NCBI GenBank assembly: GCA_008632985.1
Contig: QPGO01000085.1
Coordinates: 310,001 to 351,893, forward strand
Source: Psammoneis japonica
Lineage: Eukaryota
Length of the DNA stretch: 41,893 nucleotides
Reading direction: 5' to 3'
Shown: positions 11,084-41,524 of the stretch, piece by piece
How positions within the stretch are numbered: position 1 is the first letter of the stretch
Layout: every line of letters starts with the position of its first letter
The notes under the pieces: model-generated
What the model saw: the letters and a program-made list of their open reading frames with translations, nothing else
What the model was told of the DNA's origin: nothing
The model's database searches: none
Program-made: the position numbers and the translations under genes

Positions 11084-12129
11084 TGTTAGGTTCTGGTAAT
11101 GTCAATCGATATAATCTCCATCCATTGCGACAGTTCCAAGCCGAAGCACAAAGCAAATGCACTGCTTATCACATGCTGCAAACGAAATCTCATGTGTCAG
11201 CAAAAATGATGTATCATGTTGTTCTGGATTCGTGGCTTAGCCCGTTCAATGGAGATTCAAATCTGAAATCATATAAGAAAATTATGGTTTTATATACGAA
11301 GAAGTCTCCTAATAAATCCTTCCCTGCGAGCGAGCTGTCCCGCGCTGTGCTGCCTGACTTGGAAGCACTGTCACCATGATGTGTTCTCTGCCTGATGCGA
11401 AGAGCATGTCTCCGACTGGTGCCCCATCTGTTCCTTCAAGGTGTCTCCAAAAGCTGTGCAAAGATTTAGACGCCATGCCACCACTGTCAGATCTTCTTTT
11501 GGCTGCCTGGGGCAATGGCTCTGCACAATGAACAAGTTTGCCTGCTGGGAAATGAGCATCATCTCCTGCCCCATTGTTGCACGCCAAGTTGCCAATGCTC
11601 AAGGGGAAATCAGGGTTGGAAGCTGGAAACACATCTCTTCTGTTGGCATTTCTCATGCCCCTTTCTCAAATGTTTCACCTGTCATCTCTCTCAAATCAGC
11701 AGCTGCGCACGTGCCAGAGGGAGAAGAAAGAGGAGTGTGGCTGTGGGGCACTTCCGCCGCACATTGACCGCATTTGGCCCAAGTGGTTGGATCTTTGGGA
11801 TTGTCACAATTGGTCAGCTGAAGTGATTTGGAAGCCAAAATTGGAGCAGCACATGAATGTCAACTGAAGCAATGCCTCTGGGTGACAAATGGCCCGTGCT
11901 TCAGGTTGTGCTGAAGACTTCCACTTTTGAGAAACTGTGCTTGTGAGACTGCTTTTGCACAGTCATTGGCCAGCAAGCTGCAAGCTGGTTTTTAAGGACA
12001 AAACAGAGTGGGCTGCTCAGAGCTCTGCACAAGCAACAATGAAAAAAAAGAACAGCCCCTGGGCTGGCTGGCTGGCAGCAGCGCGCATGGCACTTGGGTT
12101 GTTGTTGTTGCAAAGAGAGCCACATGATG

Positions 12130-12309
12130 TTTTGCTTGTGAGAGACAAAGGTGGTGCATGACTGTAAAGACAAGGAGGTCATTTTTGTTAAAACCTTGCA
12201 TGAGGGATGGTTGCACAACCCCTGCTCCAGGAGAATGTGGTTTTTTTCCCAAAATGACCGTGCCGCTTCTCACATCTTGCTGTGTCTTCCCCATTTGCCC
12301 ACCAAGGGG
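12130..12309. repeat. ~180-bp dispersed repeat, inverted copy at 37562-37746
   Basis: ttttgcttgtgagagacaaagg...ccatttgcccaccaagggg matches the reverse complement of 37562-37746 with about three substitutions, a 6-nt indel and a 1-nt T-run difference. Confidence 0.92.
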
Positions 12310-13996
12310 CACGTGGCAGTCCTTGGTGGAGCATGAAGTGGCTCCATCATGAGAGTGCTGCTGCATGTGCCAGTGTGTTTGAGAGAGAAGGAAGGTGTTG
12401 TGGCACTGTGGTTGAAGCTCTGTGTTGCAGCTGGGAGGTGGGATGGTGGTGCCAGAACTCGTGACGTGGCAGCATCATCAGCCACAAGTGCTGGAATGAC
12501 ATGCCACCCCATGCTGCTTCAAAAGAGCAGTGGTCCAAGATGCAACAGGAGCCCTCTGGGAGGACCAGAAGGCCAAGCTTGAAATGTGTGGTCAAAGAGA
12601 GGTGCTCTGCTCTGCAGCACAATGCGATGCGCATGTGGGTGATTTCGACGAGGCAAAAATTCAAAATTCTGAGCATTTGAGAAGAACACACAACAACCCA
12701 AGCAAAAACAGTGCAAAAGCATTGCATTGTTCACTCCCTCTTCACATTGCCCTTGCCTTGCAAATCACTGTTTGGTCTGCAAATGATGATGTTGACATTG
12801 ACTTTGCCAAGACACTTCTTGATTTTGCTCCTTGTGGCTGACATGATGGCATTGCGCACTGCGGAGCTTTTGAGCACCAAAGTGCATGGGCAGCTGAGCT
12901 CATCATGGATCTTGTGATGTTTGAGAGATGACTGGTCCACCCTTCTTGCACTGATGGGCATGCTGTGTGGAGAACTTGCCGTTGCAACCATCACAAGCCT
13001 TGGGTGAGTTGGGGGGGCATTTTTTGCCACAGCTCCGTTGAGTGCAGACAGGTGCGTTGAAAGCCAAGCACCAGGTTTGGCACTGCGCCACACTGTGCCA
13101 GCTTCAACATCAGGCACCAGAGTGCAGAGGATAGATTTCAGTGCATCTTCATGCTTTTTGCCTTTCCTTTTGGCAACTGCTGCTTTTGCCTCTTGTGTGC
13201 CATGTCCTTGTGAGCTGCTGTGTTAAATTGCACGCAGCTGTGGAGTGAGTCAATCACCTGAGAGCACATGAGAGTGCTTGCATCAAAGTTCTGCTTTGCT
13301 GACTCCACTGGACTTTGGATGGAAAGTCTTGCAAATTTGATTGGTGGGGTGGCAAGGGCTGGTCTTGGGTTGTTGTCTGCCAGAGTCTTGCCCAAAAGTG
13401 CCAGCGGGAGTTGGTGTTTGATCTCTTCTTAGTCACCACAGTCATTTGCTGCATGTTGAACATGCTGCCACTCATGTTGCAAAGACTTCTGTGGACCTGC
13501 ATGGGCTGTCTGTGGGTGGTGAACCACCATCTTGGCAAGTCCCTGAACAACCAAGGTGTCCACTTTTTGGTCTTCTCCACTGTCCATTTGTCAAAGGCTT
13601 TCCTTTCTCCTGTGAAACCTCCCAGACAACAGCTTCCAGCTTTGGTGGTGAAGCCAAGGTCTCCAAAATAATTCTCAACATTCTCCAGGCTGTGTGCTGG
13701 CACTGCTGGGATGTTCTTGGAGTTGCCAGCAGGGCAGCATCCGTGCTTGGGTTTGTTGGCTTGCAGAGTCAAGAAGAAATTTCACAGGAGGTGAAATTTC
13801 CCTGCTGCTGCAGAGTCGTTGGCATGCCAAGGAGTGAAGGTGTTGGGGAAAAGCTCTTTCATCTCTTGGATCAGTGGGAGAAGTCTCAATCTGTGCACAA
13901 CCACACCTGGTGGATTGCCCTGCATGATGCCTTTGCTCCTTGCTGTGAAGGAGAGCAAAGGTGCTGAGGTTCCTGCAGATGATCTTAACCAAGCAC

Positions 13997-16408
13997 CACC
14001 CCTGTGGTGGGGGAGAATGTGGTGATGTCATGGTCACGTGGCAGTTCATGTCTTGTTCATCACATTTTTGTGCAAATGTTCTTACATTTGTTTGTGCATT
14101 TGCACACAAATGCCAACAGTGGCAGGAAAAATCCTGAACCACATTCTCCCCTGAAACTCTGACCACCAAAAACCGAGGGCACGGAAGCGCACTTTTGGCA
14201 GCTCTTTTCTCCACACAAAAAACACGCGTTTTGACAACTCGACCATGATGATGCCTCATGGTTCTTCCCCATTGCCTTCCCAGGATGCCAATCCCACTGA
14301 CGCCGTTGCTGACAACGCTGATGCAACAGGCAATGTCATTGTTCCGGTTCTCATGGGTGTGACGCATGCAAAATGAGATGCTGCAAACTCACACTGTTGT
14401 TTGCACACTCCACAGCCTCCCACAGACACTGTCACGAATTCCAAAGCTGCACCTGCGTTTCGGGCCCCCAGCATGCCCGACACTGTTTCTCCTGCCCTCA
14501 CTGCTGCAGGTGCTGTTGATGCTGTCATTGTCTTTTGCCAATGACGTCCACAATGAAATGCCAATGACTCACACTTCTTTCATTCTCACCCCACCGCCTC
14601 CCACAGACACCATCATGAATTCCCAAGCCGCGCCTGCGTTTCAGGCCCCTGGCATGCCCGACACTGTTGCTCCTGCCCTCACTGCTGCAGGTGCTGTTGA
14701 CACTGTTGTTGTCTTTTGCCAATGACGTCCACAATGAAGTGCCAATGACTCACACTTCTTTCATTCTCACCCCACCGCCTCTCACAGATGCTGTCACGAA
14801 TTCCAATGCCGCACCTGCATTTCAGCCCCCTGGCATGCACGACACTGTTGCTCCCACCCTCACTGCCTCAGGTGCTGTTGACACTGTTGTTGTCTTTTGC
14901 CAATGACGTCCACAATGAAGTGCTCATAACTCACACTTCTTTCATTCTCACCCCGCCGCCTCCCACAGACACTGTCACGAATTCCAACGCCGTGCCTGCG
15001 CTTCGCCCCCCTGGCATGCCCGACGCTGTTAATCCCACCCGTGCTGCCACAGGCACAGTTGACACTGTTGTTGTTTTTGCTTTGGAAGGAGCACGATGGA
15101 CAACGGCAGACCAGGAAACCCACGCAGCCATGGCCTGCTGATGGACGACACATCAATGGACATGAACAGTGCCTCTTGGTTGGCTCTCGAGTGCAGTCCA
15201 ATCTTTAGAATGCACAGACACATCATGCAGCTCTCTGTAAATTAGAAACCTGACAACAATTGGATGGCAGGCATGCTTTCACAGTTTTTTAGTTTCAAGT
15301 TGGAGAGGTCAGCGAGTTGGTGTTTGTTTGCTGGCAACTTGGCAAGGTTTCAAGTGGTGCATGTGACTTGGACACTGCTCTGTTTTCCAGGACTGGGTCA
15401 TTGTGTGCAATTCCACAAGAGGCCACTCTCGCCGTTTGAATTCTGCGTGTGATGTGCAACATGCTGTTTTTGTAAGTTGCTAAAATGGAGGCAGGTGACA
15501 ACGTGCTTTTGGCAAATGCTCACTGTGTTTGTCACCATTGGACCTTCAAAACTGCTGCCATGTCAACAGCTGTGCTGCCACTTTGCATGCCGGCACCTTC
15601 TCTGCCCGCATTCCATCAGCTGCATCCTCCTTCACATGTTGCTGCGGTTCATCTTGACACCTGTTGTTGGCTCCGATTGGTTCCGCTGGGCTCTGGGTGA
15701 GTCTCAATCACCTCCAGACAGAGGAGGTTCTGCTTGGGAACAACCATCCTGAAAAAAGTCATCACTGTGCCTCCTGTCATAGATGCTCCTCTGCCACACC
15801 CACGCCCACACAAGGAGTGTTGACCAGTGCATCAGTGCTTGTTGATCCCATGCCTTTGTTGTTCCAAGCAAAGTCGCCTTGCTCTGCCACCACCAGGCCC
15901 ACTTGCATCCACAGCAGTTGGAGCACGAGCAGGATTGTTTCGCTTGTTGTTTCATTGTGCTTGATTGCAGCACTCAATGACAAATGGCAGCAATGTCGTC
16001 CACGGTCAATTTTGGATCCAATGAAAATGGGCCCAAACTTCAGGATCACAAATCTGCTGTGTTTGGGTTACAACAGCAGGTTTGACGGCACCGGCCAACA
16101 CAGGAGAGACTGCCATGTCAGGAACGGCAGGCGGGCACATGTCAGGTGGTGTGGGGGGTGAAGAACGAGAGGTCATCATGGTCGAGTTGTCGAAATGTGT
16201 GATGTTTTGGTGTGTGCGCTGTCTTCCAAAAAGTGCACTTCCGCACCCTCGGTTTTTGGTGGTTGGAGTTTTAGGGGAGCTGTGGAACAGGAATTTTCAC
16301 TTGTGGAACACACACACACATGTGGATGTCAACATTGAAACTCAACGCACGGTGAAGCCGTGCGCATGCAACCACGAACACACACACAGCTCCCCTGCCA
16401 CAGGGGTG
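13997..16408. mobile_element. Mutator-like (9-bp TSD) non-autonomous DNA transposon
   Basis: TSD accaagcac at 13988-13996 and 16409-16417. 19-bp TIR cacccctgtgg(tg/ca)ggggag. Subterminal inverted homology ~14130-14250 vs ~16174-16297. The RT sequence (..WPSGAW) resumes across it. Confidence 0.88.
14357..15080 (+). repeat. Tandem array of four ~181-bp units inside the Mutator-like element
   Basis: ccaatgacgtccacaatgaa recurs at 14538, 14719 and 14900 (period 181); a more diverged first unit starts at ~14357. Confidence 0.9.
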
Positions 16409-18144
16409 ACCAAGCACCAGAAGGCCATTTGTGCCCAACAGTGAAAAGCATGAGTGTCCTGTTCTTCTCATTGAAGCCATTGGAGGCATCAATGAAAAGG
16501 AATCCACAGTCATCCTCAAATTTGTGTTGTTCCCAGAGCAGGTTCATTGTGTGAACCCCACCTTCAATGCCTGCTTCCAAACCAGCACACAGCTGATCAG
16601 CTCTGCAAGCCTCTTTAGCTTGAGCTCCAGAAACCAGGAGAATGGCTTTGGCCATGGAGTGTTGCCACACCTCTCCTGTGCCAACTGGGTGGATGCCCAA
16701 ATTTTTGTCCAGCGAGATGAGTCTCTTTGCCATGAGAGCCTGGCAGGTGGCCCAAGGGGGCAACTCATTTGCCAACCAGTTTGCATGCATGCAATGCTTC
16801 ACAAAGCAATCTGCTGGCCTTCCCATGATGGAGAAGCCACTCCAAAACTGTGCTGGCATTGGATCTGCCAAGTCCTGTGCTCCTTGACAGTCTTTGCATG
16901 ACAGTGTTGACGATGCTGTTGGCGAGGATCACATCTTGGAGTCAAGGCAGTTTGCCACATTTGGGAAATTGGGCTTCTTTCAGGATCCTTGAATCTGGAT
17001 GTTTTGATTTGAGGACTTCTAGAGCTGTGTCCTTTGTCTTCTCATTGACTTCATCTGGTGAGATGGAGCTCCACCTGGTGTTCTCTTTGTTGGCACTGGG
17101 GTTGGCCTTTTCTTTTTCTCTTGTGTTGCCTGCTGTCATTGGGGGGGGGGGGGGGGATTTGAGACAAGCTGACAAATTTTTGGCTGAAGTGGATCTGGTG
17201 AAGCAAGCATGAGAGTTTCATGGTTGGTCATGCAGGTGACATGGGCAAACACGTGTTTGGCAGGCAGACACAGAGGTGCAATTGCAGCACAACCCCTTGC
17301 TCTGTTTCTTCTGTTGCATGATTTTTTTTTAATTTCGCTGTGCTTCACCATGGGAAAAAACATCAAGCCACAAGTCTGTGATGGATGTGGTCCATCCACC
17401 AACTCTTGTTCATTTTACATTTGTTGCACATTGAAGGTCACACATGCACCAAATGTTTGTGGTCGGACCACTTCGGCATGTTTTGGAGAAACATCAACTG
17501 TTGCTGTCATTGTCGTGCTTTGCAGCTGGATCATGGATCATGGTGCATGATGTCCTCATTTTCCCATGCAATCAGGTGCATTTTTGCATTGGGGCATTTG
17601 CAGGGAGTCGCCTCAAATCTGTTGCAAAAGAAATCTTTTGAAAATGACCCATGACATGTGTTGCAAAAATCACTTGAGGATGTCCACAGAATCTGCACAT
17701 TTTTGTGCCAAAACTGTTGTCTTCTCAAAACTTTTGCATGAAAGGACTTTGCTGCTAACTGATCAGGTGCATTTTTGCAAATGTGTTGTTCTAAAATGCA
17801 CCTGATCAGCCAGCAGCAAAATCCATTTTTCGCAGAATTAAAATTCACCGAGGGCAGACCGACAGACTGTTCAACATTTTTCTTGGTGCTGGTCCACACA
17901 ATTTCCATGCATTTTTTTACAGTGACCCTGCGGCACGAAAGATTGCTGTTGAAGTGCGCAGGCGAAAGTCCTTGGTGCGCTTGCGCGTGCATTGCTGGAC
18001 CTCACAAGACAAAGCTGCGTTAAAAAGACATTTCAAATCACAAAACAATGGCAGATGTGCAACCATTGTGCTGCCATGCATTGCCTCAGATAACATCAAC
18101 TTAAACAGGCACACATGTCTGGCTCAAAAATTTCAACGGACGTC

Positions 18145-18300
18145 AAAAAACTGTTGAAGCTGATGGCTTCAACAAAAAATCTGTTGAAACTAAAAATGTT
18201 TTGTTGAAACTGACAGTTTCAACAGTTTTTCTGTTGAAACCAACAGTTTCAACAAAACTCGTTTCAACAAAAAGTGTTGAAACTGTTGGAATGTTGAAAT
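18145..18300. repeat. Array of palindromic gttgaaac-N-gtttcaac modules (left arm)
   Basis: Repeated tgttgaaactgacagtttcaaca / ctgttgaaaccaacagtttcaaca, roughly inverted with respect to 19007-19140. Confidence 0.75.
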
Positions 18301-19006
18301 TGATGTCACGGTTTAGAGATTGATGCTCGCAATTGCCGTGCATTGTGCCAACACCCGCCCAACACGCAAATGATGATGGCGGCCCATGGCGGCATCAAAT
18401 TTCCACTTGATGATGACAAAAATGGCGCCGTTAGAACTGCTGCAGTTTGGTCAGCACAAGCGCGAATCTTCTTGTTGTGTTCAGTTGAACAACCACAGAC
18501 TTGCGAGGTGATTTCAGAAACCTTCAAATGAAAAGTTTCTGCACACTTTTCTTGGGCCATTTTGACCCCCTCACTCTAAGAACAAACCTCATGCAAACAA
18601 TCCCATTGGGTCAGACGCATCAAAATCAGCTCTCACATGATCATTGGTGTGACTCTTGCAGACCCAGTTTGGCTGCCTTGGGCATTGAGTTTGTGTGGCG
18701 CAACATGCAACCGACAGCATTAAAATCCTTTGGATGCAGCAGGTCCATTCAAGCAACAAGCACACAACATCACATGCCAGTTCCTTGGCAAAACATGTCA
18801 TTCACACTTCATGTTGTCGATTGGTGCCAATTCTGCAGTGGTCAAGTCTGAAGAGGTTGCCAAAAACAACCGCTCACCACCATGGCAACTTGCACAAAAC
18901 ACACATCTCATCCGATGCGGAGTTCTGCACGCCACTCAGTGCATGGCATCTTGCATCCACTCATTTCACCTTGAGCGAGTCAATTCGTCGGAAATGCTGA
19001 CGCCAT

Positions 19007-19140
19007 GGTTTCAACAAAAACTGTTGAAACTGTTGGTTTCAAAAAAGAAATTGTTGAAACTGTGTGGTTTCAACAAAAATCTGTTGATTTTGTTGAAACT
19101 GTTAGTTTCAACAACTTTTTTGTTGAAAACATCTTCAGTT
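19007..19140. repeat. Array of palindromic gttgaaac-N-gtttcaac modules (right arm)
   Basis: gtttcaacaaaaactgttgaaactgttggtttc...tgttgaaactgttagtttcaaca; same module as 18145-18300. Confidence 0.75.
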
Positions 19141-22100
19141 TTTTGCGGCATTTGTGACTTTTTGAAATGAATGACCAAAATGACGTTTGCCCATTCATTT
19201 GTCGCAAAAATGTGACTTGTCTGCATGTGAAGGTTGGGCAACAGCCCAAATGTCATTCATTGACTTTAAGAACACACATGTGACAAATGCTGTCAATTTC
19301 AATTGTTTGGGCTTTCCACCCCAGCTCCGTGCTTCACATGCAAAAATTGACCCCTGTTGTCAACCAGACACCCACCTCGATCGACTGACAGTGCACAGAT
19401 GCAAAGTTCATGACACTTTTGGGGGGCTAGAATGGGGGTGAACATCAGTTGCCAGCCAATCACTGAAAATTGTCCCTCGTGCTTTCACGTGCAACAAAGG
19501 TGCTCCATGAAAAGCCAGCTCTGTTTTGAAATGTCAGATGCCATGAACGATGCACACCCATTGCATTCTCACAAGACATTGGTTTGAAGAGCATGAGACT
19601 GACAATGCTCATGTCTTGAGCATTTTGTGGCTCTAGCGGGGGTCAAAGTCCAGCCATGACTTCCAAAAAATTCGAGTCGAGCATGTCACACGGGATTCAA
19701 TGCTCGTGACTCGGAGCATGAATCGACCTTTTCTCAACACCGAGACAGATGACAACATCATCACAAACCAATTTCATGGCAATGTTCTACTTTCTAATTT
19801 GTCTTTGACCTCGTGACAACTGCATTTGACCTCTTTCATGCTGTGGATGGGCCAAGCAATCAATGAAGACTCATCTGGCTGCAAGCCACACTCTGCCACT
19901 TTTCACATTTGACACTTGTGTCTTTGCAATCAATCTAGAGTGGATGCAAGCCAGGGAGGAGCTCCATTCCCTGCTGTTTTTCATTCTGTAGAATGACAGC
20001 GTCAGAGTGATTTTGTCAACATTGCTTGACTCCTTCTTTCTTGAACTGCGCGCCAACTTCATTCTGCATTTTCACTCCCATCCGCCCGACTCTCTCCCAT
20101 TCATGAATGCTTGGCTGGATGCATTGCAGTTGCTTCATCAAAGTCTTGAACGAGATTCGTCTGGTCAACGCCATTGCTCAAATGGGTGTGATGATGTGAC
20201 AATGACATGACGACAACGTTGGATTTGCCGATGTGCTGACAGAACAAGAGTCAGCTGCGGCGGCAAGAAAGTCAAGCGAAGCAACAAGTGGTGAGCCTTG
20301 GACACACTGACAACACCATTTTGATTTTCAACCTGCTTGCCTTTTTACAAACTTGGAGTTTAACTCAGTGGGTGCCAGAAATCTGGCTGGTGGTGGGCGT
20401 GTGAAGAATTGTCATGCGACATGCTGTCATGACAAGCGAAACGGCATGTTTCAAAAAAATCTTGCCGAAATGCTTGTCTCTGACTGGACTTTTACAATGG
20501 TGTGATGCACGGAGTCTGACAGAGCAGACACTGCAAATGTCCATAAAACGATGGTGGTTTAGACACCTGTTGAAGCAATGCAACAAAACAGCTTGAGCAG
20601 CTCAACTTTGCATCATCCGGCAAAAATGCTGTTTGCACACATCATCAGCGATTGCTCTCTGATGCCATGAAACAACCACCATGGCCTGTGCTGAGTCCTT
20701 CTTTCTTGCCTTGGGGCTTTGGCTGCATGATCCGATGCTTGGCCGCTTGGCTGCTGGAGGATGTGGAAAGCTCAAAGACAAACATCAGCATGGAAAACAT
20801 CCATCGGCTCTCATGTTGAAACTGCAAGTTGAGCAAAACAATGTCGTCGGGTTGATTTGAAATTTTCAAAAATTGACTTGAATTGTCAGAGAGGGTTTGA
20901 ATTGCCTCAGCGGCAAAAGTTTGATGTCTCCATTGCCGCACGGTAAAAAAGAAGGTCATTTTTTTACTGCCCAGTTAAAAAAAAATGCTCGAACGGCGTG
21001 CGTTTTGGTGATCCGGTAAAAAGAACTGCTGGCACGTCTGATGTCTGAGCAAAAGTGTGCACGTGCATTGTCACACTGCTCAACAGAAAACAAGGTAAAA
21101 CCAAGCTGCATTTTTCAGATCACTTGTCCATCAATTTTTTTTGTTCGACGCGCCACATGAGATTCATCACATGGCAAAACACACCATGACCACGGCACCC
21201 ATCTGCCATCAGATGGAGCAAACCAGCTGTTTCAGTGTTGGTGTTGCATGATGTGGTGGCACACATGATGATGTGGAGCACTGCTGCAAAGAACGGTGAG
21301 TGAAAAAGCACAGAATGATGCAAGAATGCGTGCCCCCCTGCAATGACCGCACACCGATGCGGTGCAGTTGTGAGAAGCCAAGGGCTCTGCACTCGAGAGA
21401 CTTGTGAATGATTTGTTTGCAATGTTTTTCTTGCTGGGGATGAATGTTTTTAGCAAGAGAACAACACAGACTGAACAGTGTCTGACCAATCATGTGCTCA
21501 GTCAATGAAGAAACCACATGCTGAGTGTGGAGTTGACAATGCACAGAGGTGGTGCACAGGCAACAAAGCAAAAAAGAGCCCATGCATTGTGAGGATGGGA
21601 GCTCATCTGTTGTGACTGGATTGCAAAAGATTGAAGGACTGCCCGCACAAGATCTTTTGCCGCCCATGTTTTCATGTGAACAACAGATCTCACAGAACAC
21701 AACTCACAAGCTGCGCCCACATCCTCTTTTCTGCAATGAACTGGCCCTTCTAGACCAGTCATCCAAAACAGTGTTTTCAGATTGTCCAAGACATTTAGGA
21801 AGGTCTCTTGTTTCAATGGCAGCTTGGGCTGATCATTGCCATGGCTGCTGCTTCTGACCCTGCGGTGTTGAGTGAACCAGGCCTTTTGTCCTTGCAGTCT
21901 CCTTCCAAGCTCCTTTTCCATGTTCAGCTTGGAGCAGGATGGAGGCAGTCCTGCCAACTCACTCACTTTTCTCCAAAGGCCCATTCTCTGTTCTCTGTCA
22001 TTTTTGCTTTGGAAGCACAAGTGACTTCAATTCAAACTCTTGGTGCAGAATGCCAGAGCACCGCAACTGATCCCTTCTTGAGTGACTGAGCAGCAGCAAC

Positions 22101-23046
22101 CTTTGATTTCCTGCCTTTTTCAGAGCAAGGACGACTCTCCCAGCGCAACAACAGCCATGCCAACACACGGAAACACCAGTGCAGAAACGAGCCCCTTCAT
22201 GATGAGCTTGCACTGACAGGGCCCTGGGTGACTTGAAAGAGGGCAGCGGGGATGTTGGGCACCATGCAGAGTGCAGAGCAGCAAATTCTGCCAGACACCA
22301 GTGCAAGAGGGCCAGTGCTGAAATGTTGAGGGCATCCACGGGGCTGACGTGCTCAAAGACACCACTCAAGAGACACTGGAATTTTGAGTGGTTTGCAGCA
22401 AAAGCCATGCACAACTGTGATCAGTGCAGAAAGAGAAAAGAGCACAGTCAACAGCAAACTGGTGAGTTGCCACTTGAGTTTTTGTTCGCTGCACGCACAC
22501 AAAATGCCTTGCACCTTTCCAACTTCTGCAGCCAAAATCAGCTGATTCGCGTCCTTCAGATGTGGACAAACGCACGCATCATCCCACCAACATCTTGGAG
22601 GATTTGTTGCAAACAACATGAAAATTGGCAAAGCCAACCAAAAGGCAGTTGCGCACCTTGGCTCCGATGAACAATTGTTCATGTCTGCAATTCGCTGCAC
22701 ATCGATCTGCTGAGGTCGCTTCTTGAGAGATGAATGAGAAGCTGTCGCTTTTCTGCTGTTTTGAGCTTCCTCCCATCCAAGGCCTTCTTGACTTCTCAAG
22801 GCTCAACACCACCCCATCCAGTGCAGCCGATGAAGTCCAAAGGCCAGAGGGTTGCCACAACGCCAGCATTCATCATCGACATGGCTGCGGCATCTTTTGC
22901 CCACGGCGCTCCATGGTTTCATGGCGGCAATCGGCGGACTGAAATCTTTCAGCCTCAGAGGGAGGTCCCCCAATTAAAAAAATTGATGGGCGGGTGATCT
23001 GAAAAATGCATTTGGTGCACCGTCTGGGTGGACGTGTGCTGGAGTG

Positions 23047-23357
23047 CAAATGAAAGCAGAACAAAGCACGAAAAGTGGAAATTGTGAGGTTGCATTTTAA
23101 ATTTCACTCTGTGATTTTTGGTTTCTCCAAAAACAAGTTCTCAATGGCCTGAAGCTTGTGCACTGCCTCCACAGACAAAACGCCTTTTGGAGAACATGAT
23201 TGTGGCAACAGATTGTCCAGATGCGATTGCCACTGACGTGCAACATGTCAACATCATCATTCGATCGTACTTGCAATTCTTGACTTCCGATCAATTCTGT
23301 GTGATTGTTCTGTCCTTTGCGCGCATCCACAATTGTGGCACGATTGATGCACATGTG
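23047..23357. repeat. ~310-bp direct repeat, copy 1 (copy 2 at 29620-29922)
   Basis: Colinear match from caaa.gaaag..gaa..aag..cgaaaagtggaaattgtgag to ttgtggcacgattga; most differences are transitions at TG/CA positions. Confidence 0.92.
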
Positions 23358-23592
23358 TGGCGCGCAACTGCACATGTGCACACAACAGTCGCATGCTGCA
23401 CTTGCCTCCTTGACTGCACACTGGAGTTGTTCATCAAGCGGAGTTGTTCAACGCACACTGACAGTGTCAGCAATGTTTCCATGTTGACTGTGCTGCACTG
23501 CGCCATTGGCGATGACTGTTGTTGTTTTGTGGGCCAGTGCAGGGCCGTTCCAGTTTCCGAGTTTCTTTTGAGAGTGTCGTTGTTTGTCTCTC

Positions 23593-23594
<2 letters not shown>

Positions 23595-23630
<36 letters not shown>
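23595..23630. repeat. (TG)n microsatellite abutting an assembly gap (N at 23631-23757)
   Basis: Directly visible. Confidence 0.95.
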
Positions 23631-24755
23631 NNNNNNNNNNNNNNNNNNNNNNNNNNNNNNNNNNNNNNNNNNNNNNNNNNNNNNNNNNNNNNNNNNNNNN
23701 NNNNNNNNNNNNNNNNNNNNNNNNNNNNNNNNNNNNNNNNNNNNNNNNNNNNNNNNNGTCATTTGTTGAAGTGGGCAGTTTTTCATGCCGCAATGATTGA
23801 AGACCAGTTGTTGTCCTGCTGGCTTCATGGCATCAACTGCAAACAGCATTTTGCCTGACACTTGGCGTGCACTCTCAATCATGGCGCTCACTTGCTTGTG
23901 GATTTCGCACAACTTTCTGGTGAGCTTGCTCTGTGTGCCACATTGCTCTGCCGCACTTCCGCGCATCATGAGCAGCCAACGATGGTCAAGGATGTTTTCT
24001 GACCATTTCGTCTTGACAATCCTGTGGTGGTTGTGGATTCCTTCATGGATTTTTCATTGCTCCAACCATCTTTTCGTTGGATTTGTGCCATTGTTCGGAC
24101 ATTTCTTTTTGACATGCCGGCATTTTTTGTCACTCTGAAGGCCATGCTTTCATGCACCAAGTGGACAAATGTCCATTTTTCTGATGTGTGTGTGTTGTTT
24201 CTGAATCTTCGGCACATCTCGTTTGTCGACATGATGCATTTTCTTTCATGTCTTGCCCCGCACATTGAACATCACAACCACGCAGGTCTTGTGAGATTGT
24301 CTTTTGTGCCAGTGTGAAGTGGGCAGCACAATGTGCGCCAATCTTTCACTTGCTTTTTTCCAACCACCCTTTCTTGAGATGATCTCATCATGATGTGAGC
24401 ATTTTTTGATCTCGCTCGCCTCCACAAAAAGTCTTCGTGTGGTTTGTCATGCCCAACAATTTGGAGGGAATGTCTTCACCCCATTTTAATGGCAAGACAT
24501 TCTCACAGGATTCAGATGCAATCTTGTCAGCTGGAGCTTGTAGACTGGGGTTTTCCATGGGTTCAATTTTTTTCACAGCAAGTTGGCTGATCGCATCTCT
24601 GACAAGGTTTGCCTTGCCCTCAATGTGCATCATTTTGGGGCTGCATTTTTCCATCACAAGTTGCCAATGCGCGACTCTGTCCATTGTGTCTTGTGATCCA
24701 TCATCCATCCATGTGTCAATCTGTTGGCCAAACAGCATGTTCTGGAATTTCTTGA

Positions 24756-25581
24756 GAGCATCTTTGCCAGTGAGTCGCAAGCACAAACACAAACATGGGA
24801 ACACAACCCAAAAGGACAAGCAAACAGACTGCCCCATGTGAGTTTGTGATTCTGCACACAACCATCATTTTCAGTTGATCACAATCACACTCACATTTGG
24901 CTGATGGTTGGGCAGATGTTGAGGCAACAAGCAACTCCACACACGAACATCAATGGCCAACTGATGGTGGGACGGACTTGTCGAATGTTGCTGCATGATG
25001 CCATGGCGGCTTTGAACGCAACACATGACACAAGCCACAGTCTGTTCAAGGACATGTCAATGTCTGTCAATGGAGAACAATTCATGTTGCATGTCTGTGT
25101 GTTGCTGTGTTGTGAGGGGCATTCCACATCGTGAAAACAAGCAAAACGCTGTCACACGATTTACGCCTTGTTCTCTTCTGACCCCACAAACCTCCCACAT
25201 GTCCACTCTCCTCCCATGTCTCAATGCGGCCGCATGCAAGTTCACAAGGTGCAACAAAGTGTCAATTGTTGGGCCTCTGCAAGGTCCTTTCATCAAGAAA
25301 GCATCGATTGTTGTTTTGTCATGGTGACTCGCACTTTCCACAGGATTTCTGCACCCTTTTTGCACCAGAAATTTGCAACTCTCATTTGCAATTTTGGAAG
25401 GTGGATTGCATCCAAGGCCTGATTTGCGATTCACTTTCATGAGTTGCAAATTCAAAAAGGGTTGCAAGCGCAAAAAACATGTTTGCGATCCACCAAAAAT
25501 GACGATTTTTTGTGAATCTCATTCGCATCGGAAGACGTGTGGACATGGGTTTGTGCTCACGACTCGCTGGTGAAGATGCTC
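24756..25581. mobile_element. Non-autonomous TIR element A at an ancestral TTAA site (RR...YY termini, Kolobok-like)
   Basis: ~34-bp TIR gagcatctt(tg/ca)ccag(t/c)gagtcg(ca/tg)agcacaaac. Flanked by TTGA (24752-24755) and TCAA (25582-25585). Interrupts gypsy RNase H between VETL and KKFQ. Confidence 0.75.
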
Positions 25582-25585
25582 TCAA

Positions 25586-26499
25586 GGGTGGTCAGCTGCC
25601 ACTTTTTTCAGCTCAAACTCGGCTGAGTGGCTCATGTTTTGCATGATTTTTCCTGAATTTCACCGTGCTTCACCGTGGTGAAAACAACAAGCCACAAGTC
25701 TGTGATGGAGGTGGTCCGTCCACCAACTCTCATTTGTTTTGTGTTTGTTGTGTGTCAAAGATTGTGTGTGCATGAAAAGTTGGCAGACGGCAAACTGCAT
25801 TTTTGAGAAATGTTGATGATTGTCATCATCGTCGTGCTTCGATCGCGGTGCTGATGGTTCTCGTTTTCGTGTGCGATCGGGTGTTGCCACAAACAGTTCT
25901 TGCACTCAAAAACAAACACCACAAAAAACCTCACTCAAATGCAACGGCAATTTCAGGACAAACCCGGGGATGACCCCCCCCCCCAAGGATGGACCATTGT
26001 TTTGTGGTCGATTTCATTCAGAGCTTGCAAACATTTAAAAATGACCCGGACTTGTCACACTGGCAATGCGCGCATTTGCCAAACAAAAATTCAGCGACAG
26101 GTCGAACTTTGTCTGTTTGCAAGACAACATGGAATGCACATGTGATGGTTGCAACCATGTGTGATGTGCAGCGCAATGACTGCAGATGTGTCTGCAGCTG
26201 GTCAAATGCCAATTGTCGGCATTTCCTGGAAAGTTGTGCCTTGTCTGCTGTTGGCAGTTGGATTTTGGCAAAAAATGGCGCTTCATTGAACATGACAACT
26301 GCACCAAAGCTGACAATTGGCATTTGAGCATTTTCAAGTGCAGTTCACACACAGGTCTGACAGCCCTGATGGGGGCTGGACACACTCACATGTGTTTGGG
26401 GGTGCTCACAGGCATCACAAAATGACACGGGCGAAGCACGGGGAAATTCGAAAATCACAATCCATTGAAAAAAAAACAGCGCAAAACAACAATCCAGCC
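25586..26499. mobile_element. Second insertion B in tandem at the same target site (GG...CC ends, weak TIR)
   Basis: Non-gypsy sequence bounded by TCAA (25582-25585) and TCAA (26500-26503). Ends read GGGTGG / CCAGCC. Gypsy RNase H resumes at 26504. Confidence 0.55.
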
Positions 26500-28463
26500 T
26501 CAAGTGTTTCCACTGTGGACAGAAGTTCTTTTTCCATTGCAGGGCAGCACATCTGCACTTCATTTGGCTTGCAGCTGCAGCTCCCAATTGAGAATTGTTC
26601 GTGTCGGGACATGTCTCAAAGGAAAGTTAAAATTCGGGCATGACAACAATGCAGTTTTTTGATGTGATGCGCTCCACACATTCGGAGACTTTTTGTTCCA
26701 TGCTTGTCCTTTTGCCATTTGACATTTGTTGAGGTGAGTTTGGCCAGTGATGCACAGAAGATTGTTTTGATTGGAGTCAAGCAATGGCATGATGATGTGA
26801 GTTGAGGACCATTGGTCCCATCATCAACTCCATTCATGGAGTCACATGTTTCAATGTGATCGGCTTTCAGCTGGAAAACATTGGCATCGAAGAGTGCATC
26901 AACATTCTTCACAGGTGGAGTTGCTTCTTCCCACTTGATTTCCTCATTTGCAGAGTCCAACATGACTCCAAGACTGGACATTGGGTCATGTCCCATGATC
27001 ATGTTGTGACAACTTGAAGAAGAAGGGGTGTTGTCAGCACACGCCATTGTTTGCATTGTCTCATGCTCATCAAATTCAGGCAAAGAGAGCTGCGCTGAAC
27101 AGCAACCATCAGTTGTGAAGAGTCCATCCTTGGTTTCCCAAGTTTTGGTGGCGGACTCCTTCACTCTCAACTTCTGCATGAATTTGCGCAAAATTGTGGT
27201 TGATGATGTTCTTTGTCAAGAAGAATGGCGTGGAAGCTCATTTTTCACTTTTCTCCAAGAAGCAGTCACACAAACAGTGATGAAAGGACCAGCACAACAC
27301 ACTTCGATGCTTTTTCTGGGTTGCCAGACATCCTGCAATGCGCTGCACTCCTCAAGTGGTGCGAATCTTTGATTGGAGTCAATCGGGTCAATTTTTCCAA
27401 ATTGACAGTTTTGTTCAGCAAGCACATTCCTTTGCCAAGGAACTCACTTCAATTGTTTTTGTGAACTGCCCAGTTCATTGTGGAGCTCAGCTCCTCTTTC
27501 ACAGAGTCATTTCTGCTGTCGTCACATGACCGCATGCAACTGCTGTTAGAGCGTGGTGTGTTGGGGTCTCTTTCAGAGCCACCCTTGCACTCTTTTGCCA
27601 GCTTCTTTTTTCAAAAGCTTTGGTCCATGATGTGGGTGTTCTTTTTGCAAAGATTGGACCTCTCACTCACTTTGGGTTGCTTGGGTGCCATTTGGCGACC
27701 ATTTTTGGAACCAGATTTAGAGCCATTTTTGTTTTTTGAACCAACTTTGCTGTCAGAGCCTGATTTGATGGTTTTTTTGGTCATGGACATCATCAACGAC
27801 CTCTGGATGACTCAAAACTCAATCAGCTCATCAGAAAGGCATGTCCCAGTGGCTCAACATCTTGGATGGTTGACTGATGCCACCATCGCTGCGGCGCGAG
27901 TCACAGCTGACAGCTCGGGGCTCGGTTTCCCACTGGACTCAACTCAGAGTTGATTGAAGGGTCGCACAGACACTCTTCATTGACCTCTTGGGTCCATCAG
28001 ACATTTTCTTGCTGTTCAGCTGCCTTGGTTTCTTCAGATCATCTTGAAAATGACAACTCTGATTCTGAAGTGCATTTCCTTGGGAGACATGAGTTGAGAG
28101 ACGCTTGGGGCACTTTTCAATGGTTCCTTCTTGTTCTTCAGACTCGAGGCTTGTTGATTTGGTCTCAAAAACTCTAAAAAAAAACCAGATCCATGTTTTA
28201 AGTGCTGTCACTCCTTTGCCAGCTGGGCTGGTGCCAGTTGACCCACACCCCCAGCACACAGTCAAGTGCAGCAGGAGCTTGCACAGGATCAGCCGGAACA
28301 GAAGGAATGGTTCACATGAGGAATTTGTTGCATGCTTGATGATGACAGCCACAGAAGGCACACCACAACTGCAACGGACAATTGCACTCAGATGGGTTTT
28401 TAAAACAGTCCACAAAAGGAGCCTTGAAGGCAAGATGAGCAGGTCATCGGAGAAAATGTTCTT

Positions 28464-28943
28464 GACACGCAGAAACAATGCTTGGTCTTGCGCAGAAAGG
28501 CCAACGAGAGCAGCAAACTGAAGACCATCAAATGGCACCACAGGATGACTTGTCTTCTTGCTGAAAAGGACCGCAAAAGAAGCAGCACATTCACCACAAA
28601 GAGTGAAGCACTTGACTGCACAGCAGAGAAAAGAAGAGAGGTTGAAGACCGACTGGCAAGGATGAAAGCAGTCTGGAGAAGTGACATGCAGACAGTCAGA
28701 GATGACACGCAGAAACAATGCCAGATCTTGCGTGGAAAGACCAATGGGGAGCAGCAAATCGACAACAACCAAATGACTCCAAAGGATGACCAATGTTCTT
28801 GCTGAAGGGCTGCAACAGAAGCAGCGCTTGCACCATGAAGAGTGCAGGACTTGATTGCATGGCAAGGAAAAGAAGCAGCTTTGAGAGCCGATTCGCAATG
28901 ATGAAAGCAGGCCGGGGAAGCGACATGCAGATCGTCAGCAGCG
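28464..28943. repeat. Two diverged 240-bp (80-codon) tandem units in a decayed coding-like segment
   Basis: gacacgcagaaacaatgc at 28464 and 28704. Minus-strand translation repeats GLS.QD.ALFLRV and LHV.SP.CFH.C.S. Confidence 0.7.
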
Positions 28944-29619
28944 TCTGCGGATCCGCTTGGAATTTGCACTGGAGCCTGTGCAGAAAGTTTTCTGAGACAG
29001 CAGAAAATTGTGGTCAACAATGACCAGCATGCAAACCAAAAACTTGTCATTTTCCACTGATGAACTTTGCTCATCATGCTGCAATGAGGATGTGCCATTG
29101 GCAAACGTGGACAGAATGGGCTTGTTGGAGCCAAACCAACACCGTCTGAGAACGGCAACACATCGGTGTGAAAACACATGCAGAAACACACACAGGAGGT
29201 TGCCAGTGGGTGCTCACACAGAAGCGTGGTCTCAAAAACTCTCCAATGGTCTCTTCTTGCATGGCAGATGCATTTCTTGGACCTGATCGACTCGAGACTT
29301 GACATTCTGTCCAGCCATGACTTGGCACAGATTTTTGACAATGCTGCACACTCACAGAGTCCTTGATCCTGAATTGCTTGGAATGGGTCACATCAGAATG
29401 AATCCTCTTGTTTTGCAGACAAAAAAAGGGTTCCATCTTGAGGCACTGCTCAGATTGAGCTTCTTCCGCTCGGAAATCGATTCCAGCAGAACTGGTGGTG
29501 CGATTCGTTCCTGCTCACAGAACAATTTGCAAAGAGGCACATCAGTTGAAACTTTCATTTTCCGTGTTTTTACCTTCTGTGGTGTGCACACACAATGCAC
29601 TGTGCTCAAAGAATGAGCA

Positions 29620-29922
29620 CAAACGAAAGTGGAATGAAGTGCGAAAAGTGGAAATTGTGAGAACAAATTTCACTCTGTCATTTTTGGTTTCTCCGAACGA
29701 GTTCTCAATGGCCTAAAGCTTCTGCACTGCTTCTACAGACAAAAGGCCTTTCGGAGAATGTGATCATGACAACAGATTGTCCGGATGCGATTGCCATTGA
29801 CACGCAAGATGTCAACATCGTCATTCGATCGTATTTGCAATTTTTGACTTCCGATCAACTCTGTGTGATCGTTCTGTCCTTCGCACGCATCCACGATTGT
29901 GGCACGATTGACACACACATGC
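29620..29922. repeat. ~300-bp direct repeat, copy 2; retains more ancestral TA/CG than copy 1
   Basis: Matches 23047-23357. Has ggccTAaag (29714) and ttcTAcag (29734) where copy 1 has ggccTGaag (23150) and ctcCAcag (23170). Confidence 0.92.
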
Positions 29923-34010: not shown

Positions 34011-34389
34011 ACGAAAAAGTCTGCAATCACCAACCACTGAGTGGTCAATGAAAAGTGTTGTCACGGCAATCAACAGGATTCCACTGAGTGGAAATTGTGA
34101 GGGTCACTCCATGCCACCCACCATTTGAGTGACAGTGGTGGTCTTCGCCAAACGGTCCCAACGCTCGTTTCGGTGACAGCATGGCTGGAATTGCTCAGCC
34201 CCCTCGAGCTGACACTGCCACTGCCAATGCTCCAGCTAGAGCAGCCAGTCCAGTCGGGTCAGTTCGACATGGCCTGTGCCTTCCGCATTGCTGCCCTGTT
34301 CCAGGTGAAAATCTAACTTCACATTTCATTCAGGATGGGCAAAACCCCTCCATTTTGGAGGAGAAAATCCTGGCGCCTGTCCATTTTGG

Positions 34390-41377: not shown

Positions 41378-41524
41378 AAATCCAAGTTGGCAGTGGTTTG
41401 GTGGGTGTTTGGAGCAAGTTGTTGCCGGCACTTTTGTTTGCCAGCCAATGTGCAAAGTTGTCTGGCAGTGGTCGACAATGTGGGAGTCCTTTTTTCTCCA
41501 CACACCAGACACTGGATTGGCTCA

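What the first reader, a model, noticed from the sequence alone, without database searches (positions are those of the whole stretch)
13815..13829. Catalytic RT motif WYADD reads WHAND, giving the direction of both mutation classes
Seen: minus strand tgg cat gcc aac gac. Established: non-LTR RTs carry YADD. Inference: TAT->CAT (TpA->CpA) and gcC Gac->gcC Aac (CpG->CpA) within 15 bp. A functional RT would have had Tyr here, so the ancestral state was TA; CpG decay cannot produce this change.
Basis: partly seen in the sequence, partly recalled or inferred. Interest (0 to 1): 0.75.

Follow-up and report, generated by a model that had tools for sequence, protein, structure and literature searches.

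The report
Dead RT motif records TpA erasure
The catalytic motif of a dead retrotransposon enzyme has mutated from W-Y-A-D-D to W-H-A-N-D, and it is one example of a striking, apparently undescribed process that has removed almost every TA and most CG dinucleotides from the repeat DNA of this eukaryotic genome while leaving the neighbouring genes untouched.

Summary
13829..13815 (minus) reads tgg cat gcc aac gac = WHAND, at motif C of an R2-like non-LTR reverse transcriptase. The enzyme is dead: three in-frame stops, three frame changes and a 2.3-kb insertion.

None of 145 protein relatives, and none of the 72 of 79 related DNA loci in which the motif was found, has His there (Tyr 127, Phe 14; codons TAT 36, TAC 25).

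In a frameshift-aware profile alignment, 36 of 57 single-step changes at conserved columns are TpA>CpA/TpG or CpG>TpG/CpA. A context-blind null gives at most 0.21. Conserved Tyr is retained 0 of 7 times. A separate copia-like element shows the same (Tyr retained 0 of 16; His 8, Cys 4).

Two repeat blocks (about 11.5-29.7 kb and 34.2-41.9 kb) have TpA o/e 0.05 and CpG 0.35. Gene-like DNA has 0.56 and 0.99. The CA+TG gain (7.41%) matches the TA+CG loss (7.05%).

TA loss depends on the tetranucleotide: ATAT, ATAC and GTAC are erased, TTAA is kept. It is strand-symmetric.

Best reading: an in-place, DNA-level, sequence-specific A:T>G:C hypermutation of silenced repeats, alongside CpG decay. The enzyme is unknown. 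Eight literature searches found no description.

The parts
13815..13829 (-). WHAND, the mutated W-Y-A-D-D catalytic motif (motif C) of the reverse transcriptase. Tyr>His by TAT>CAT and the first Asp>Asn by C|GAC>C|AAC.
16804..17070 (-). RT piece A0 (N-terminal region), in the reading frame of 19299. One in-frame TGA at 16944.
   Evidence: profile positions 256-344, E 1.6e-19..
16413..16787 (-). RT piece A (fingers and motif A, ...DASNGFN...WPSGA), in the frame of 19298. There is a frame change relative to A0.
   Evidence: E 9.4e-59
14040..16340 (.). Insertion of about 2.3 kb that splits the RT (ends approximate). Inverted-repeat arms at 14126-14270 and 16157-16298, and a 181-bp tandem array at 14369-15080. 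It is a high-copy family in the one DNA sample laid.
   Evidence: summed contig depth 1560-6255 here, against 36-53 in the single-copy bins between 10500 and 13155.
13557..13937 (-). RT piece B1 (motifs B, C and D; holds WHAND). One in-frame TGA at 13784.
   Evidence: (E 1.7e-24)
13150..13548 (-). RT piece B2 (thumb-like region, PQTAHAG...LQHEWQ), shifted into the frame of 19299. One in-frame TAA at 13431.
   Evidence: (E 7.4e-26)
12924..13016 (-). RT piece B3, the C-terminal Cys-Cys-His-Cys knuckle (CDGCNGKFSTQHAHQC), back in the frame of 19298.
   Evidence: E 3.4e-11
11470..29700 (.). Repeat block 1, almost free of TpA and poor in CpG. The boundaries are sharp: they lie between TA sites 11467 and 11993 on the left, and near 29571-29714 on the right.
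34240..41893 (.). Repeat block 2, with the same composition. It runs to the end of the window.
34050..40317 (-). Ty1/copia-like element: LTR-like repeats at 34050-34198 and 40173-40317, pol at 37585-34405, and a possible gag ORF at 39575-38322. Its YVDD motif reads CVDK. It gives an independent replicate of the Tyr>His/Cys pattern.

Best explanation
WHAND is the wreck of the W-Y-A-D-D active site of a dead, R2-like non-LTR reverse transcriptase. It has no function now. It is a fossil that records the direction of two dinucleotide-specific transition classes, TpA>CpA/TpG and CpG>TpG/CpA, which have swept all repeat DNA in this window.

Shown:
- The ancestral residues were Tyr and Asp.
- The same two classes account for most changes at conserved codons of two unrelated elements.
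- The process stops at the gene boundaries.
- It went on after insertion, independently in each copy.
- It hits both strands equally.
- It depends strongly on the tetranucleotide: RTAY is erased and TTAA is spared.

Inferred:
- The CpG class is ordinary deamination of 5-methylcytosine in silenced, methylated repeats.
- The TpA class is a DNA-level, sequence-reading process that turns A:T into G:C at TpA in the same silenced DNA. It would be either an enzyme or a sequence-specific base modification.
- My most likely chemistry, at about one chance in three, is deamination of adenine to hypoxanthine, which then pairs as G. The agent would be a zinc deaminase of the TadA/ADAT2 kind, or deamination of a modified adenine.

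The effect resembles fungal RIP: it destroys transposon reading frames by transitions with few indels. The direction is the opposite, because TpA is consumed, not produced.
For: Motif: 0 of 145 relatives have His and 141 of 145 have Asp at the first Asp position. Related DNA loci use TAT or TAC there in 61 of the 72 loci with the motif.

Codon table: 191 conserved columns, 66 changed, 57 of them single-step. CpG>CpA 17, CpG>TpG 4, TpA>CpA 10, TpA>TpG 5, other transitions 9, transversions 12. Retention: Tyr 0/7 and Arg 2/11, against Lys 8/8, His 5/5, Cys 5/5, Trp 7/8. The null for the labelling rule is at most 0.21.

Replicate in the copia-like element: Tyr 0/16 retained (His 8, Cys 4), Ile 2/16, Arg 13/28, against Pro 24/27 and Lys 15/19.

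Census: 25.3 kb of repeat blocks have TA o/e 0.05, CG 0.35 and CA/TG 1.76. 15 kb of gene-like DNA have 0.56, 0.99 and 1.17. The other twelve dinucleotides differ by at most 0.14 in o/e. Budget: TA -3.50%, CG -3.55%, CA+TG +7.41%.

The family is not intrinsically TA-poor. 70 related open frames have a median TpA o/e of 0.52, range 0.18-0.77.

After insertion and per copy: in two LTR-like pairs, 43 of 62 mismatches are transitions at Y-R steps, with 11 CA/TG double differences. Control gene paralogues give 49 of 229. Other genomic copies differ from the window by 170 transitions against 38 transversions. 4 adjacent CA<>TG pairs appear among the 40 rows shown.

Specificity (strand-symmetrised counts, gene-like > depleted): ATAT 104>0, ATAC 85>0, GTAC 92>2, but TTAA 38>46 (frequency ratio 0.72).

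Strand symmetry: 17 His and 17 Cys among 34 Tyr events.

The sequence is real: contigs of a public DNA sample match the depleted DNA with 0 other letters over seven pieces, at single-copy depth.

Biochemical precedent for one enzyme deaminating both A and C in DNA: amphioxus ADAT2/3 (PMC10354150, passages read).
Against: No enzyme, modification or gene was identified. No genome is held for this window, so neither genome-wide extent nor a candidate deaminase could be examined.

The simple model of a single-strand enzyme reading 5'-TA[N]-3' fits the tetranucleotide survival but fails its own prediction. Whether Tyr became His or Cys does not depend on the preceding base: Fisher p = 1.0, 17 His observed against 12.4 expected, and 2 His of 5 where the model gives about 0.05. 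So recognition looks site-level, not strand-level.

The context reported for amphioxus ADAT2 on DNA is GAA and TCG, not TpA.

The LTR-like pairs also carry 13 other transitions and 6 transversions in 440 aligned bases. The elements are therefore not young, and a slow, continuous decay fits as well as a RIP-like burst.

The ancestral composition of the repeats is assumed to have been like the gene-like DNA.

The sequencing platform of the supporting run is not on record, and the run may come from the same organism as the assembly.
Confidence: 0.7

Rival explanations
1. Slow passive decay. Thymine (for example 5-hydroxymethyl- or 5-formyluracil made by a TET/JBP-type oxygenase) or adenine is chemically modified at TpA in silent chromatin. 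The modified base occasionally mispairs at replication, so TpA decays to CpA/TpG over long times, just as 5mCpG decays to TpG/CpA. No dedicated mutator is needed.
For: Both classes are confined to the same blocks and stop at the same gene boundaries, as a chromatin-bound modification would. The outcome is strand-symmetric and site-level, as expected of a mark placed on both strands of a palindromic step. LTR-like pairs show background divergence as well, so there was time. That thymine modification in some protists favours TpA is recalled knowledge and comes from no call.
Against: TA loss is more complete than CpG loss (91% against 65% of the gene-like level). This holds even in the 2.3-kb insertion, which must be younger than the RT it splits and still keeps 68 CG but only 12 TA. 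So the rate would have to exceed that of 5mC deamination. No paper found links such a mark to TpA loss.
Confidence: 0.2
2. RNA editing fossil. Transposon transcripts were hyper-edited A-to-I by an ADAR-like enzyme, and the edited RNA was reverse-transcribed and integrated.
For: A>G at a 5'-U neighbour is the ADAR preference (recalled knowledge). Both elements with readable genes are retroelements.
Against: Half of the Tyr events are T>C on the sense strand (17 His against 17 Cys), which editing of the sense RNA cannot give. The inverted-repeat insertion, the tandem array and all intervening DNA are equally depleted. LTR-like pairs and dispersed copies differ by CA/TG double differences that arose after copying. 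TAT is the most affected context and TAG is among the less affected ones, only TAA being spared more.
Confidence: 0.03
3. Artefact. The DNA really has TA and CG, but heavy base modification in repeats makes the sequencer or basecaller read CA/TG.
For: Sharp regional boundaries and strand-random outcomes would also follow from a regional modification. The platform of the assembly and of run X1 is not on record.
Against: Seven contigs assembled from a public run match the depleted DNA exactly at depth 28-38, close to the 50.7 of the flanking gene contig. That gene contig differs from the window at 6 of 666 bases, so the run is not a copy of the assembly. The window has a sized 127-N gap typical of scaffolded short-read or Sanger assemblies. 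A miscall rate above 90% at TA, with TTAA spared, is not a known basecaller behaviour (my knowledge).
Confidence: 0.04
4. Ordinary neutral decay plus CpG methylation only, or a natural His variant of an active RT.
For: CpG decay is clearly present (CpG o/e 0.35). Three in-frame stops and three frame changes show that the copy is old.
Against: Neutral decay does not remove 91% of one dinucleotide while leaving AT, AA and the rest at their gene-like levels. CpG loss explains only half of the CA/TG gain. His occurs in 0 of 145 relatives, and the catalytic Asp is also lost.
Confidence: 0.02

Closest known systems
Repeat-induced point mutation (RIP) of Neurospora and other fungi
   Same: Transitions only, tied to one dinucleotide, confined to repeated DNA with sharp edges at genes. 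It kills transposon genes mainly by substitutions, and each copy is mutated independently.
   Different: RIP changes C:G to T:A at CpA and so creates TpA (abstracts of PMC2621366 and PMC7882544 in the listing). Here A:T becomes G:C at TpA and TpA is destroyed: the reverse reaction on a different base. The organism is not shown to be a fungus; the hints point to a diatom-like protist. Dependence on duplication and on a sexual phase was not tested.
CpG decay by deamination of 5-methylcytosine in methylated transposons
   Same: The Asp>Asn change of WHAND (C|GAC>C|AAC) and 21 of 57 single-step changes in the RT are of this class. Loss is weaker in G+C-rich flanks (GCGC ratio 0.93, ACGA 0.24).
   Different: It cannot make TAT>CAT, and it accounts for only about half of the CA/TG excess. 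Methylation itself was not measured.
Editing of retroelements by ADAR (A>G) or APOBEC3 (G>A), fixed in genomes after retrotransposition
   Same: Clustered transitions in mobile elements with a nearest-neighbour preference.
   Different: Those are strand-specific and are acquired before integration. Here both strands are hit equally, non-retro repeats are affected too, and copies diverge after insertion. The comparison rests on recalled knowledge of those systems.
ADAT2/ADAT3 tRNA deaminase with DNA activity (amphioxus; trypanosome)
   Same: One natural zinc deaminase can deaminate both adenine and cytosine in DNA (PMC10354150, passages read). Its tRNA target A34 follows U33, which is a T-A step (recalled).
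   Different: The reported DNA contexts are GAA and TCG in E. coli, with hairpin loops as substrates. No role in genome defence is known. No such gene was examined here.
R2 / CRE group of site-specific non-LTR retrotransposons (restriction-like endonuclease type)
   Same: RT with W-Y-A-D-D, followed by a C-terminal Cys-Cys-His-Cys knuckle. No apurinic-type endonuclease domain was found in 8 relatives. The best solved matches are R2 proteins (E 2.1e-8).
   Different: Clade placement was not tested by a tree. Target-site specificity is unknown. The window copy is truncated or unreadable beyond the knuckle.

Membership tests
Non-LTR retrotransposon reverse transcriptase (RVT_1 type) | RT fingers/palm motifs, including motif A (D..NAFN) and motif C (Y/F-A-D-D) | tested here: met
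   The window pieces match a profile of 33 relatives (E 9.4e-59, 1.7e-24, 7.4e-26). Five of 8 relatives hit Pfam RVT_1 at E<=0.01, 2 of them above the curated cut-off. The window ORFs themselves hit no Pfam family.
Non-LTR retrotransposon reverse transcriptase (RVT_1 type) | Intact catalytic Asp pair and an open frame (an active member) | tested here: not met
   WHAND has Asn for the first Asp. There are three in-frame stops, three frame changes and a 2.3-kb insertion. It is a dead copy.
The only related evidence is that the best solved relatives are R2 proteins.
R2/CRE-type (restriction-like endonuclease) non-LTR elements | C-terminal Cys-Cys-His-Cys knuckle followed by a PD-(D/E)XK-like nuclease, and no N-terminal apurinic-type endonuclease | tested here: inconclusive
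   The knuckle is present at 13016-12924. The relatives' consensus continues with conserved E-P, D and K positions, which I read as nuclease-like from memory only. No Pfam endonuclease hit in 8 relatives. The window has no readable sequence beyond the knuckle.
Fungal RIP | C:G>T:A transitions at CpA (or another CpN), giving a TpA excess | tested here: not met
   TpA o/e is 0.05 and CpA/TpG 1.76 in the repeats. The inferred direction is TpA>CpA/TpG.
Fungal RIP | Restricted to duplicated DNA, with sharp borders and independent mutation of each copy | tested here: inconclusive
   Sharp borders and copy-specific CA/TG outcomes are met. Whether duplication is the trigger could not be tested. A 200-bp TA-normal island sits inside block 2.
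5mC-driven CpG decay | CpG>TpG/CpA with CpG depletion limited to methylated DNA | tested here: inconclusive
   Depletion and direction are met. Methylation was not measured.
Ty1/copia LTR retrotransposon (second element, 34050-40317) | RVT_2 reverse transcriptase and integrase core in one polyprotein, flanked by direct repeats | tested here: met
   Relatives P0157 and P0158 carry RVT_2, and P0157 also rve. They align to 37585-34405. Direct repeats 34050-34198 and 40173-40317 are 78% identical.

The most novel reading that the evidence does not exclude
This genome runs a genome-defence or heterochromatin-linked DNA editing system of a kind not described before. A sequence-reading activity converts A:T to G:C at R-T-A-Y sites in silenced repeats, on either strand, until TpA is all but extinct. 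As a by-product it wipes out every Tyr codon and every TAA/TAG stop in transposon genes. The likeliest agent would be a natural DNA adenine deaminase, perhaps one enzyme that also deaminates cytosine at CpG. It would be a mirror image of fungal RIP and a natural counterpart of engineered adenine base editors.
Probability: 0.3. Interest if true: 0.95.

Novelty: new variant of a known kind. Interest (0 to 1): 0.8.

Why it matters
Dinucleotide-specific hypermutation of repeats is known only as C>T, in fungal RIP, CpG decay and APOBEC. A process that removes TpA by A:T>G:C transitions, with tetranucleotide specificity and gene-sparing borders, would be a new mutational signature. If it is enzymatic, it would be the first natural genome-scale DNA adenine editing.

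It has practical consequences too. In such DNA only TGA stops survive: 1335 TGA against 142 TAA+TAG over six frames. Long spurious ORFs therefore appear in all frames. Transposon proteins lose all Tyr, and profile searches miss them: 0 of 66 ORFs hit Pfam. Repeat annotation and gene calling in this lineage will be misled unless the signature is recognised.

The WHAND motif is the cleanest single site that fixes the direction of the change.

Tried and rejected
- Whole-genome search: no genome is held for this window.
- Pfam on the window's own RT ORFs: no hit even at E 10.
- Pfam on 66 ORFs of at least 100 aa from the depleted blocks: 0 hits.
I replaced it with stop-to-stop ORFs under table 1.
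- The 418-aa ORF at 38322-39575: no homologue among proteins of 229-732 aa. Its reading as gag is a guess from position only.
- My first codon table treated 13200-14027 as one frame. tblastn frames showed frame changes near 16800, 13550 and 13025, so the 'outer' columns were misaligned. I dropped them and redid the table piece by piece.
- Per-strand 5'-TA[N]-3' model: it fits tetranucleotide survival but its prediction for His against Cys failed. I rejected it as a strand-level mechanism.
- Pair 23047-23353 / 29620-29917: I hoped for a mutated copy against an unmutated one. Both copies are depleted.
- Self-BLAST against the database returned almost nothing. I repeated it with -subject.
- Relatives with Tyr-free composition, which would be other hypermutated copies in public data: none clear among 189 proteins of at least 200 aa.
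- Sequencing runs: no RNA holder is listed. Only one sample holds the stretch.
- Earlier notes of this scan: none for this genome or this sequence. The only 'TpA depletion' note concerns a phage and was not used.
- Literature: eight searches listed no paper describing TpA loss in repeats. Two diatom transposon papers contain none of RIP, point mutation, TpA, hypermut or deaminat (term counts only, text not read).
- Organism: the Atlas gives only 'eukaryote, Bacillariophyta or Chlorophyta commonest'. One RT relative is named from a Thalassiosira species. The taxon stays a hint.
Full report
THE SITE. The minus strand of 13829..13815 reads TGG CAT GCC AAC GAC, that is W-H-A-N-D. It lies in a reverse-transcriptase remnant on the minus strand between about 17070 and 12924.

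A search of 1.84 billion representative proteins with the 199-residue ORF 16329-16928 gave 2445 relatives at E<=0.001; the best 150 were listed. tblastn of five long relatives placed all their matches in this one locus.

A profile of 33 relatives of at least 560 aa matches five window pieces:
- 17070-16804, E 1.6e-19
- 16787-16413, E 9.4e-59
- 13937-13557, E 1.7e-24 (this piece holds WHAND)
- 13548-13150, E 7.4e-26
- 13016-12924, E 3.4e-11 (a Cys-Cys-His-Cys knuckle)

The pieces alternate between two reading frames, giving three frame changes. They hold three in-frame stops: TGA at 16944, TGA at 13784 and TAA at 13431. They are split by an insertion of about 2.3 kb with inverted-repeat arms and a 181-bp tandem array. 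The copy is dead.

WHAT STOOD THERE BEFORE. Among 145 relatives that cover the motif, the second residue is Tyr 127, Phe 14, Cys 1, Val 1, Ala 1, Leu 1 and never His. The first Asp is Asp in 141.

Seventy-nine related DNA loci were fetched from metagenomes. The motif was found in 72 of them. The codon at the Tyr position is TAT 36, TAC 25, TTT 7, TTC 2, TTA 1, GCT 1. The closest relative reads PWYADDAASAGKF against PWHANDSAAAGKF.

DOES IT GENERALISE WITHIN THE ELEMENT? In the frameshift-aware alignment, 191 columns are conserved at 60% or more among the relatives. The window differs at 66 of them. Fifty-seven differences need one base change:
- CpG>CpA 17
- CpG>TpG 4
- TpA>CpA 10
- TpA>TpG 5
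- other transitions 9
- transversions 12

Nine more need several changes. The labelling rule favours the four context classes when a change is ambiguous. I therefore simulated context-blind single substitutions under the same rule. At most 0.21 are so labelled, even with transitions only (computed on the 127 core columns, where the observed share was 26 of 35).

Retention by residue tells the same story. Tyr is kept 0 of 7 times and Arg 2 of 11, against Lys 8/8, His 5/5, Cys 5/5 and Trp 7/8. The nine columns where Tyr is the commonest residue read Cys 5, His 3, Phe 1.

AN INDEPENDENT REPLICATE. The 297-aa ORF 36451-37341 found two relatives with RVT_2 and integrase domains. They align to 37585-34405 on the minus strand. 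This is a Ty1/copia-like element between direct repeats at 34050-34198 and 40173-40317.

The two relatives agree at 375 columns. At the 16 Tyr columns the window has His 8, Cys 4, Phe 2, Asn 1, Leu 1, with none retained. Ile is kept 2 of 16 times and Arg 13 of 28, against Pro 24/27 and Lys 15/19. Its own catalytic YVDD reads CVDK.

THE COMPOSITION OF THE BLOCKS. In 500-bp windows the count of TA falls from 13-31 in most gene-like windows (three windows, at 3001-3500 and 4001-5000, hold only 3-7) to 0-8 at about 11.5 kb. It stays there to about 29.6 kb, returns to 19-31 up to 34 kb, and falls again to the end of the window.

Strand-symmetrised observed/expected values:

| | TA | CG | CA/TG |
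|---|---|---|---|
| 25.3 kb of depleted DNA | 0.05 | 0.35 | 1.76 |
| 15.0 kb of gene-like DNA | 0.56 | 0.99 | 1.17 |

The other twelve dinucleotides differ by at most 0.14. As shares of all dinucleotides, TA falls by 3.50% and CG by 3.55%, while CA+TG rises by 7.41%. The books balance only if both classes feed CA/TG.

The RT family is not TA-poor by nature. Seventy related open frames of at least 400 aa have a median TpA o/e of 0.52, range 0.18-0.77.

One side effect: in the depleted DNA the six frames hold 1335 TGA but only 96 TAA and 46 TAG. This is why long ORFs abound in every frame and why none of 66 such ORFs hits Pfam.

WHEN AND WHERE IT ACTS. Two LTR-like pairs, presumably identical at insertion, differ at 62 positions. 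Of these, 43 are transitions at pyrimidine-purine steps, 13 are other transitions and 6 are transversions. There are 11 places where one copy has CA and the other TG. Control paralogous genes at 2532-3184 / 4040-4695 give 49 of 229.

I laid contigs of the one public DNA sample that holds this stretch. Other genomic copies of the repeats differ from the window by A>G 45, G>A 44, C>T 42 and T>C 39, against 38 transversions in all. Four adjacent CA<>TG pairs appear among the 40 differences shown; 172 more were not shown.

So the changes were made in place, copy by copy.

The 2.3-kb insertion must be younger than the RT it splits. It keeps 68 CG but only 12 TA in 2261 bases. The RT pieces keep 16 CG and 7 TA in 1884 bases. 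TA loss thus seems to run ahead of CpG decay, although the starting CpG content of the insertion is unknown.

SPECIFICITY. Loss of TA depends on both flanking bases. Symmetrised counts, gene-like > depleted:
- ATAT 104>0
- ATAC/GTAT 85>0
- GTAC 92>2
- CTAG 56>12
- CTAA/TTAG 49>27
- TTAA 38>46 (frequency ratio 0.72)

A multiplicative model with one factor per flank reproduces all ten contexts. The factors are 0.054, 0.145, 0.369 and 0.871 for a 3' T, C, G and A. ATAT and TTAA have the same base composition, so duplex stability cannot be the cause. Something reads the sequence.

I then tested whether the factors belong to the strand that is changed. They do not. Among 34 Tyr codons that became His or Cys, the split is 17:17 and is independent of the preceding base (Fisher p = 1.0). 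The flanks set the rate at the site, and either strand is then changed with equal chance.

CpG loss is milder and weakest in G+C flanks (GCGC ratio 0.93, ACGA 0.24).

IS THE SEQUENCE REAL? Seven contigs from a public run match the depleted DNA with no differing letter; one of them has a single gap. They cover 11136-12137, 12321-13271, 13245-13718, 16507-17156, 19010-19511, 23102-23579 and 24806-25370, at depth 28-38. The contig over the flanking gene has depth 50.7 and differs from the window at 6 of 666 bases. The platform is not on record. No listed piece is shown across the motif itself.

MECHANISM. Shown: direction, context, restriction to repeats, action after insertion, and strand symmetry.

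These results exclude four readings:
- a natural His variant
- plain neutral decay
- CpG decay alone
- editing of sense RNA before reverse transcription

Inferred: the CpG class is deamination of 5-methylcytosine in silenced repeats. The TpA class needs either adenine read as guanine or thymine read as cytosine.

I favour enzymatic or modification-dependent deamination of adenine, at about one chance in three. Deamination is the only simple chemistry that gives A>G. The same fold can act on both A and C in DNA: amphioxus ADAT2/3 does so, and the same paper cites trypanosome ADAT2/3 for C only (PMC10354150, passages read). The tRNA target of that family, A34, follows U33 (recalled). Against this, the DNA contexts reported there are GAA and TCG.

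The main rival, at about one in five, is slow mispairing of a modified thymine or adenine laid down at TpA in silent chromatin. Neither can be settled without the genome, which is not held.

WHAT FAMILY IS THE RT? Relatives hit Pfam RVT_1 weakly (5 of 8 at E<=0.01, 2 above the cut-off) and no endonuclease family. They share a C-terminal Cys-Cys-His-Cys knuckle followed by conserved acidic and Lys positions. A profile of 17 relatives finds R2 retrotransposon proteins as the best solved structures (E 2.1e-8).

This fits the R2/CRE group of non-LTR elements.

The host looks like a photosynthetic protist. The genes have long, uninterrupted ORFs (ankyrin, SET/Rubisco-LSMT-like, AAA_16, Sel1). The Atlas neighbours are mostly from diatoms and green algae. 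One RT relative is named from a Thalassiosira species.

NOVELTY. Eight full-text searches listed only fungal RIP, ADAR and CpG papers. Two diatom transposon papers contain none of the terms RIP, point mutation, TpA, hypermut or deaminat (term counts only). The scan's own notes hold nothing for this genome.

I cannot exclude a description in a subscription journal or in the genome paper of this organism, which I did not try to identify.

VERDICT. The motif itself is an ordinary dead active site. Its value is that it fixes the direction of a very unusual, highly specific and apparently undescribed mutational process in repeat DNA.

Noticed in passing
window 37747-37950: A stretch of about 200 bp with normal TA and CG density lies inside the otherwise depleted copia-like element, between the possible gag ORF and pol. 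The TA run at 37686-37935 holds 13 TA sites, 11 of them at 37775-37935 inside this stretch and the other two (37686, 37710) in the neighbouring duplicated segment. It may be a young insertion or a join. It has no Pfam hit.
   Followed up: partly
window 12130-12309 and 37562-37746: A near-identical inverted duplicate links the two depleted blocks (99% over 92 nt, 94.6% over 186 nt). Only 3 mismatches in 179 aligned bases, none at a Y-R step. It was therefore copied or homogenised after the depletion. It abuts the TA-normal island.
   Followed up: partly
window 14040-16340: The element that splits the RT has inverted-repeat arms (14126-14270 / 16157-16298, 77% identical) and three 181-bp tandem units. 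Summed contig depth is 1560-6255, against 36-53 in the single-copy bins between 10500 and 13155, so it is a high-copy family. No coding capacity was recognised.
   Followed up: partly
window, depleted blocks: GCGC is not depleted at all (82 > 128 symmetrised counts, ratio 0.93), while other CpG contexts fall to 0.24-0.52. Either this context escapes methylation or deamination, or a GCGC-rich repeat inflates the count.
   Followed up: no
window 2532-3184 and 4040-4695: Two 67%-identical paralogous coding stretches lie 1.5 kb apart in the gene-like region. I used them as the TA-normal control. They have no Pfam family.
   Followed up: no
window 10500-11165: The public run's contig differs from the window at 6 of 666 bases over the AAA_16 gene, but at 0 bases over the next depleted pieces. 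This suggests another haplotype or strain with uneven divergence.
   Followed up: no
proteins P0229, P0176, P0120; locus L024: A few relatives carry WCADD or WYAND at motif C. One metagenome locus has TpA o/e 0.18 with CpG 0.55 and CA/TG 1.47. These may be partly converted copies from other organisms with the same process.
   Followed up: no
window 23580-23757: A (TG)n-like run reads straight into the 127-N gap. The contigs of the public run appear cut at 23580-23630.
   Followed up: no
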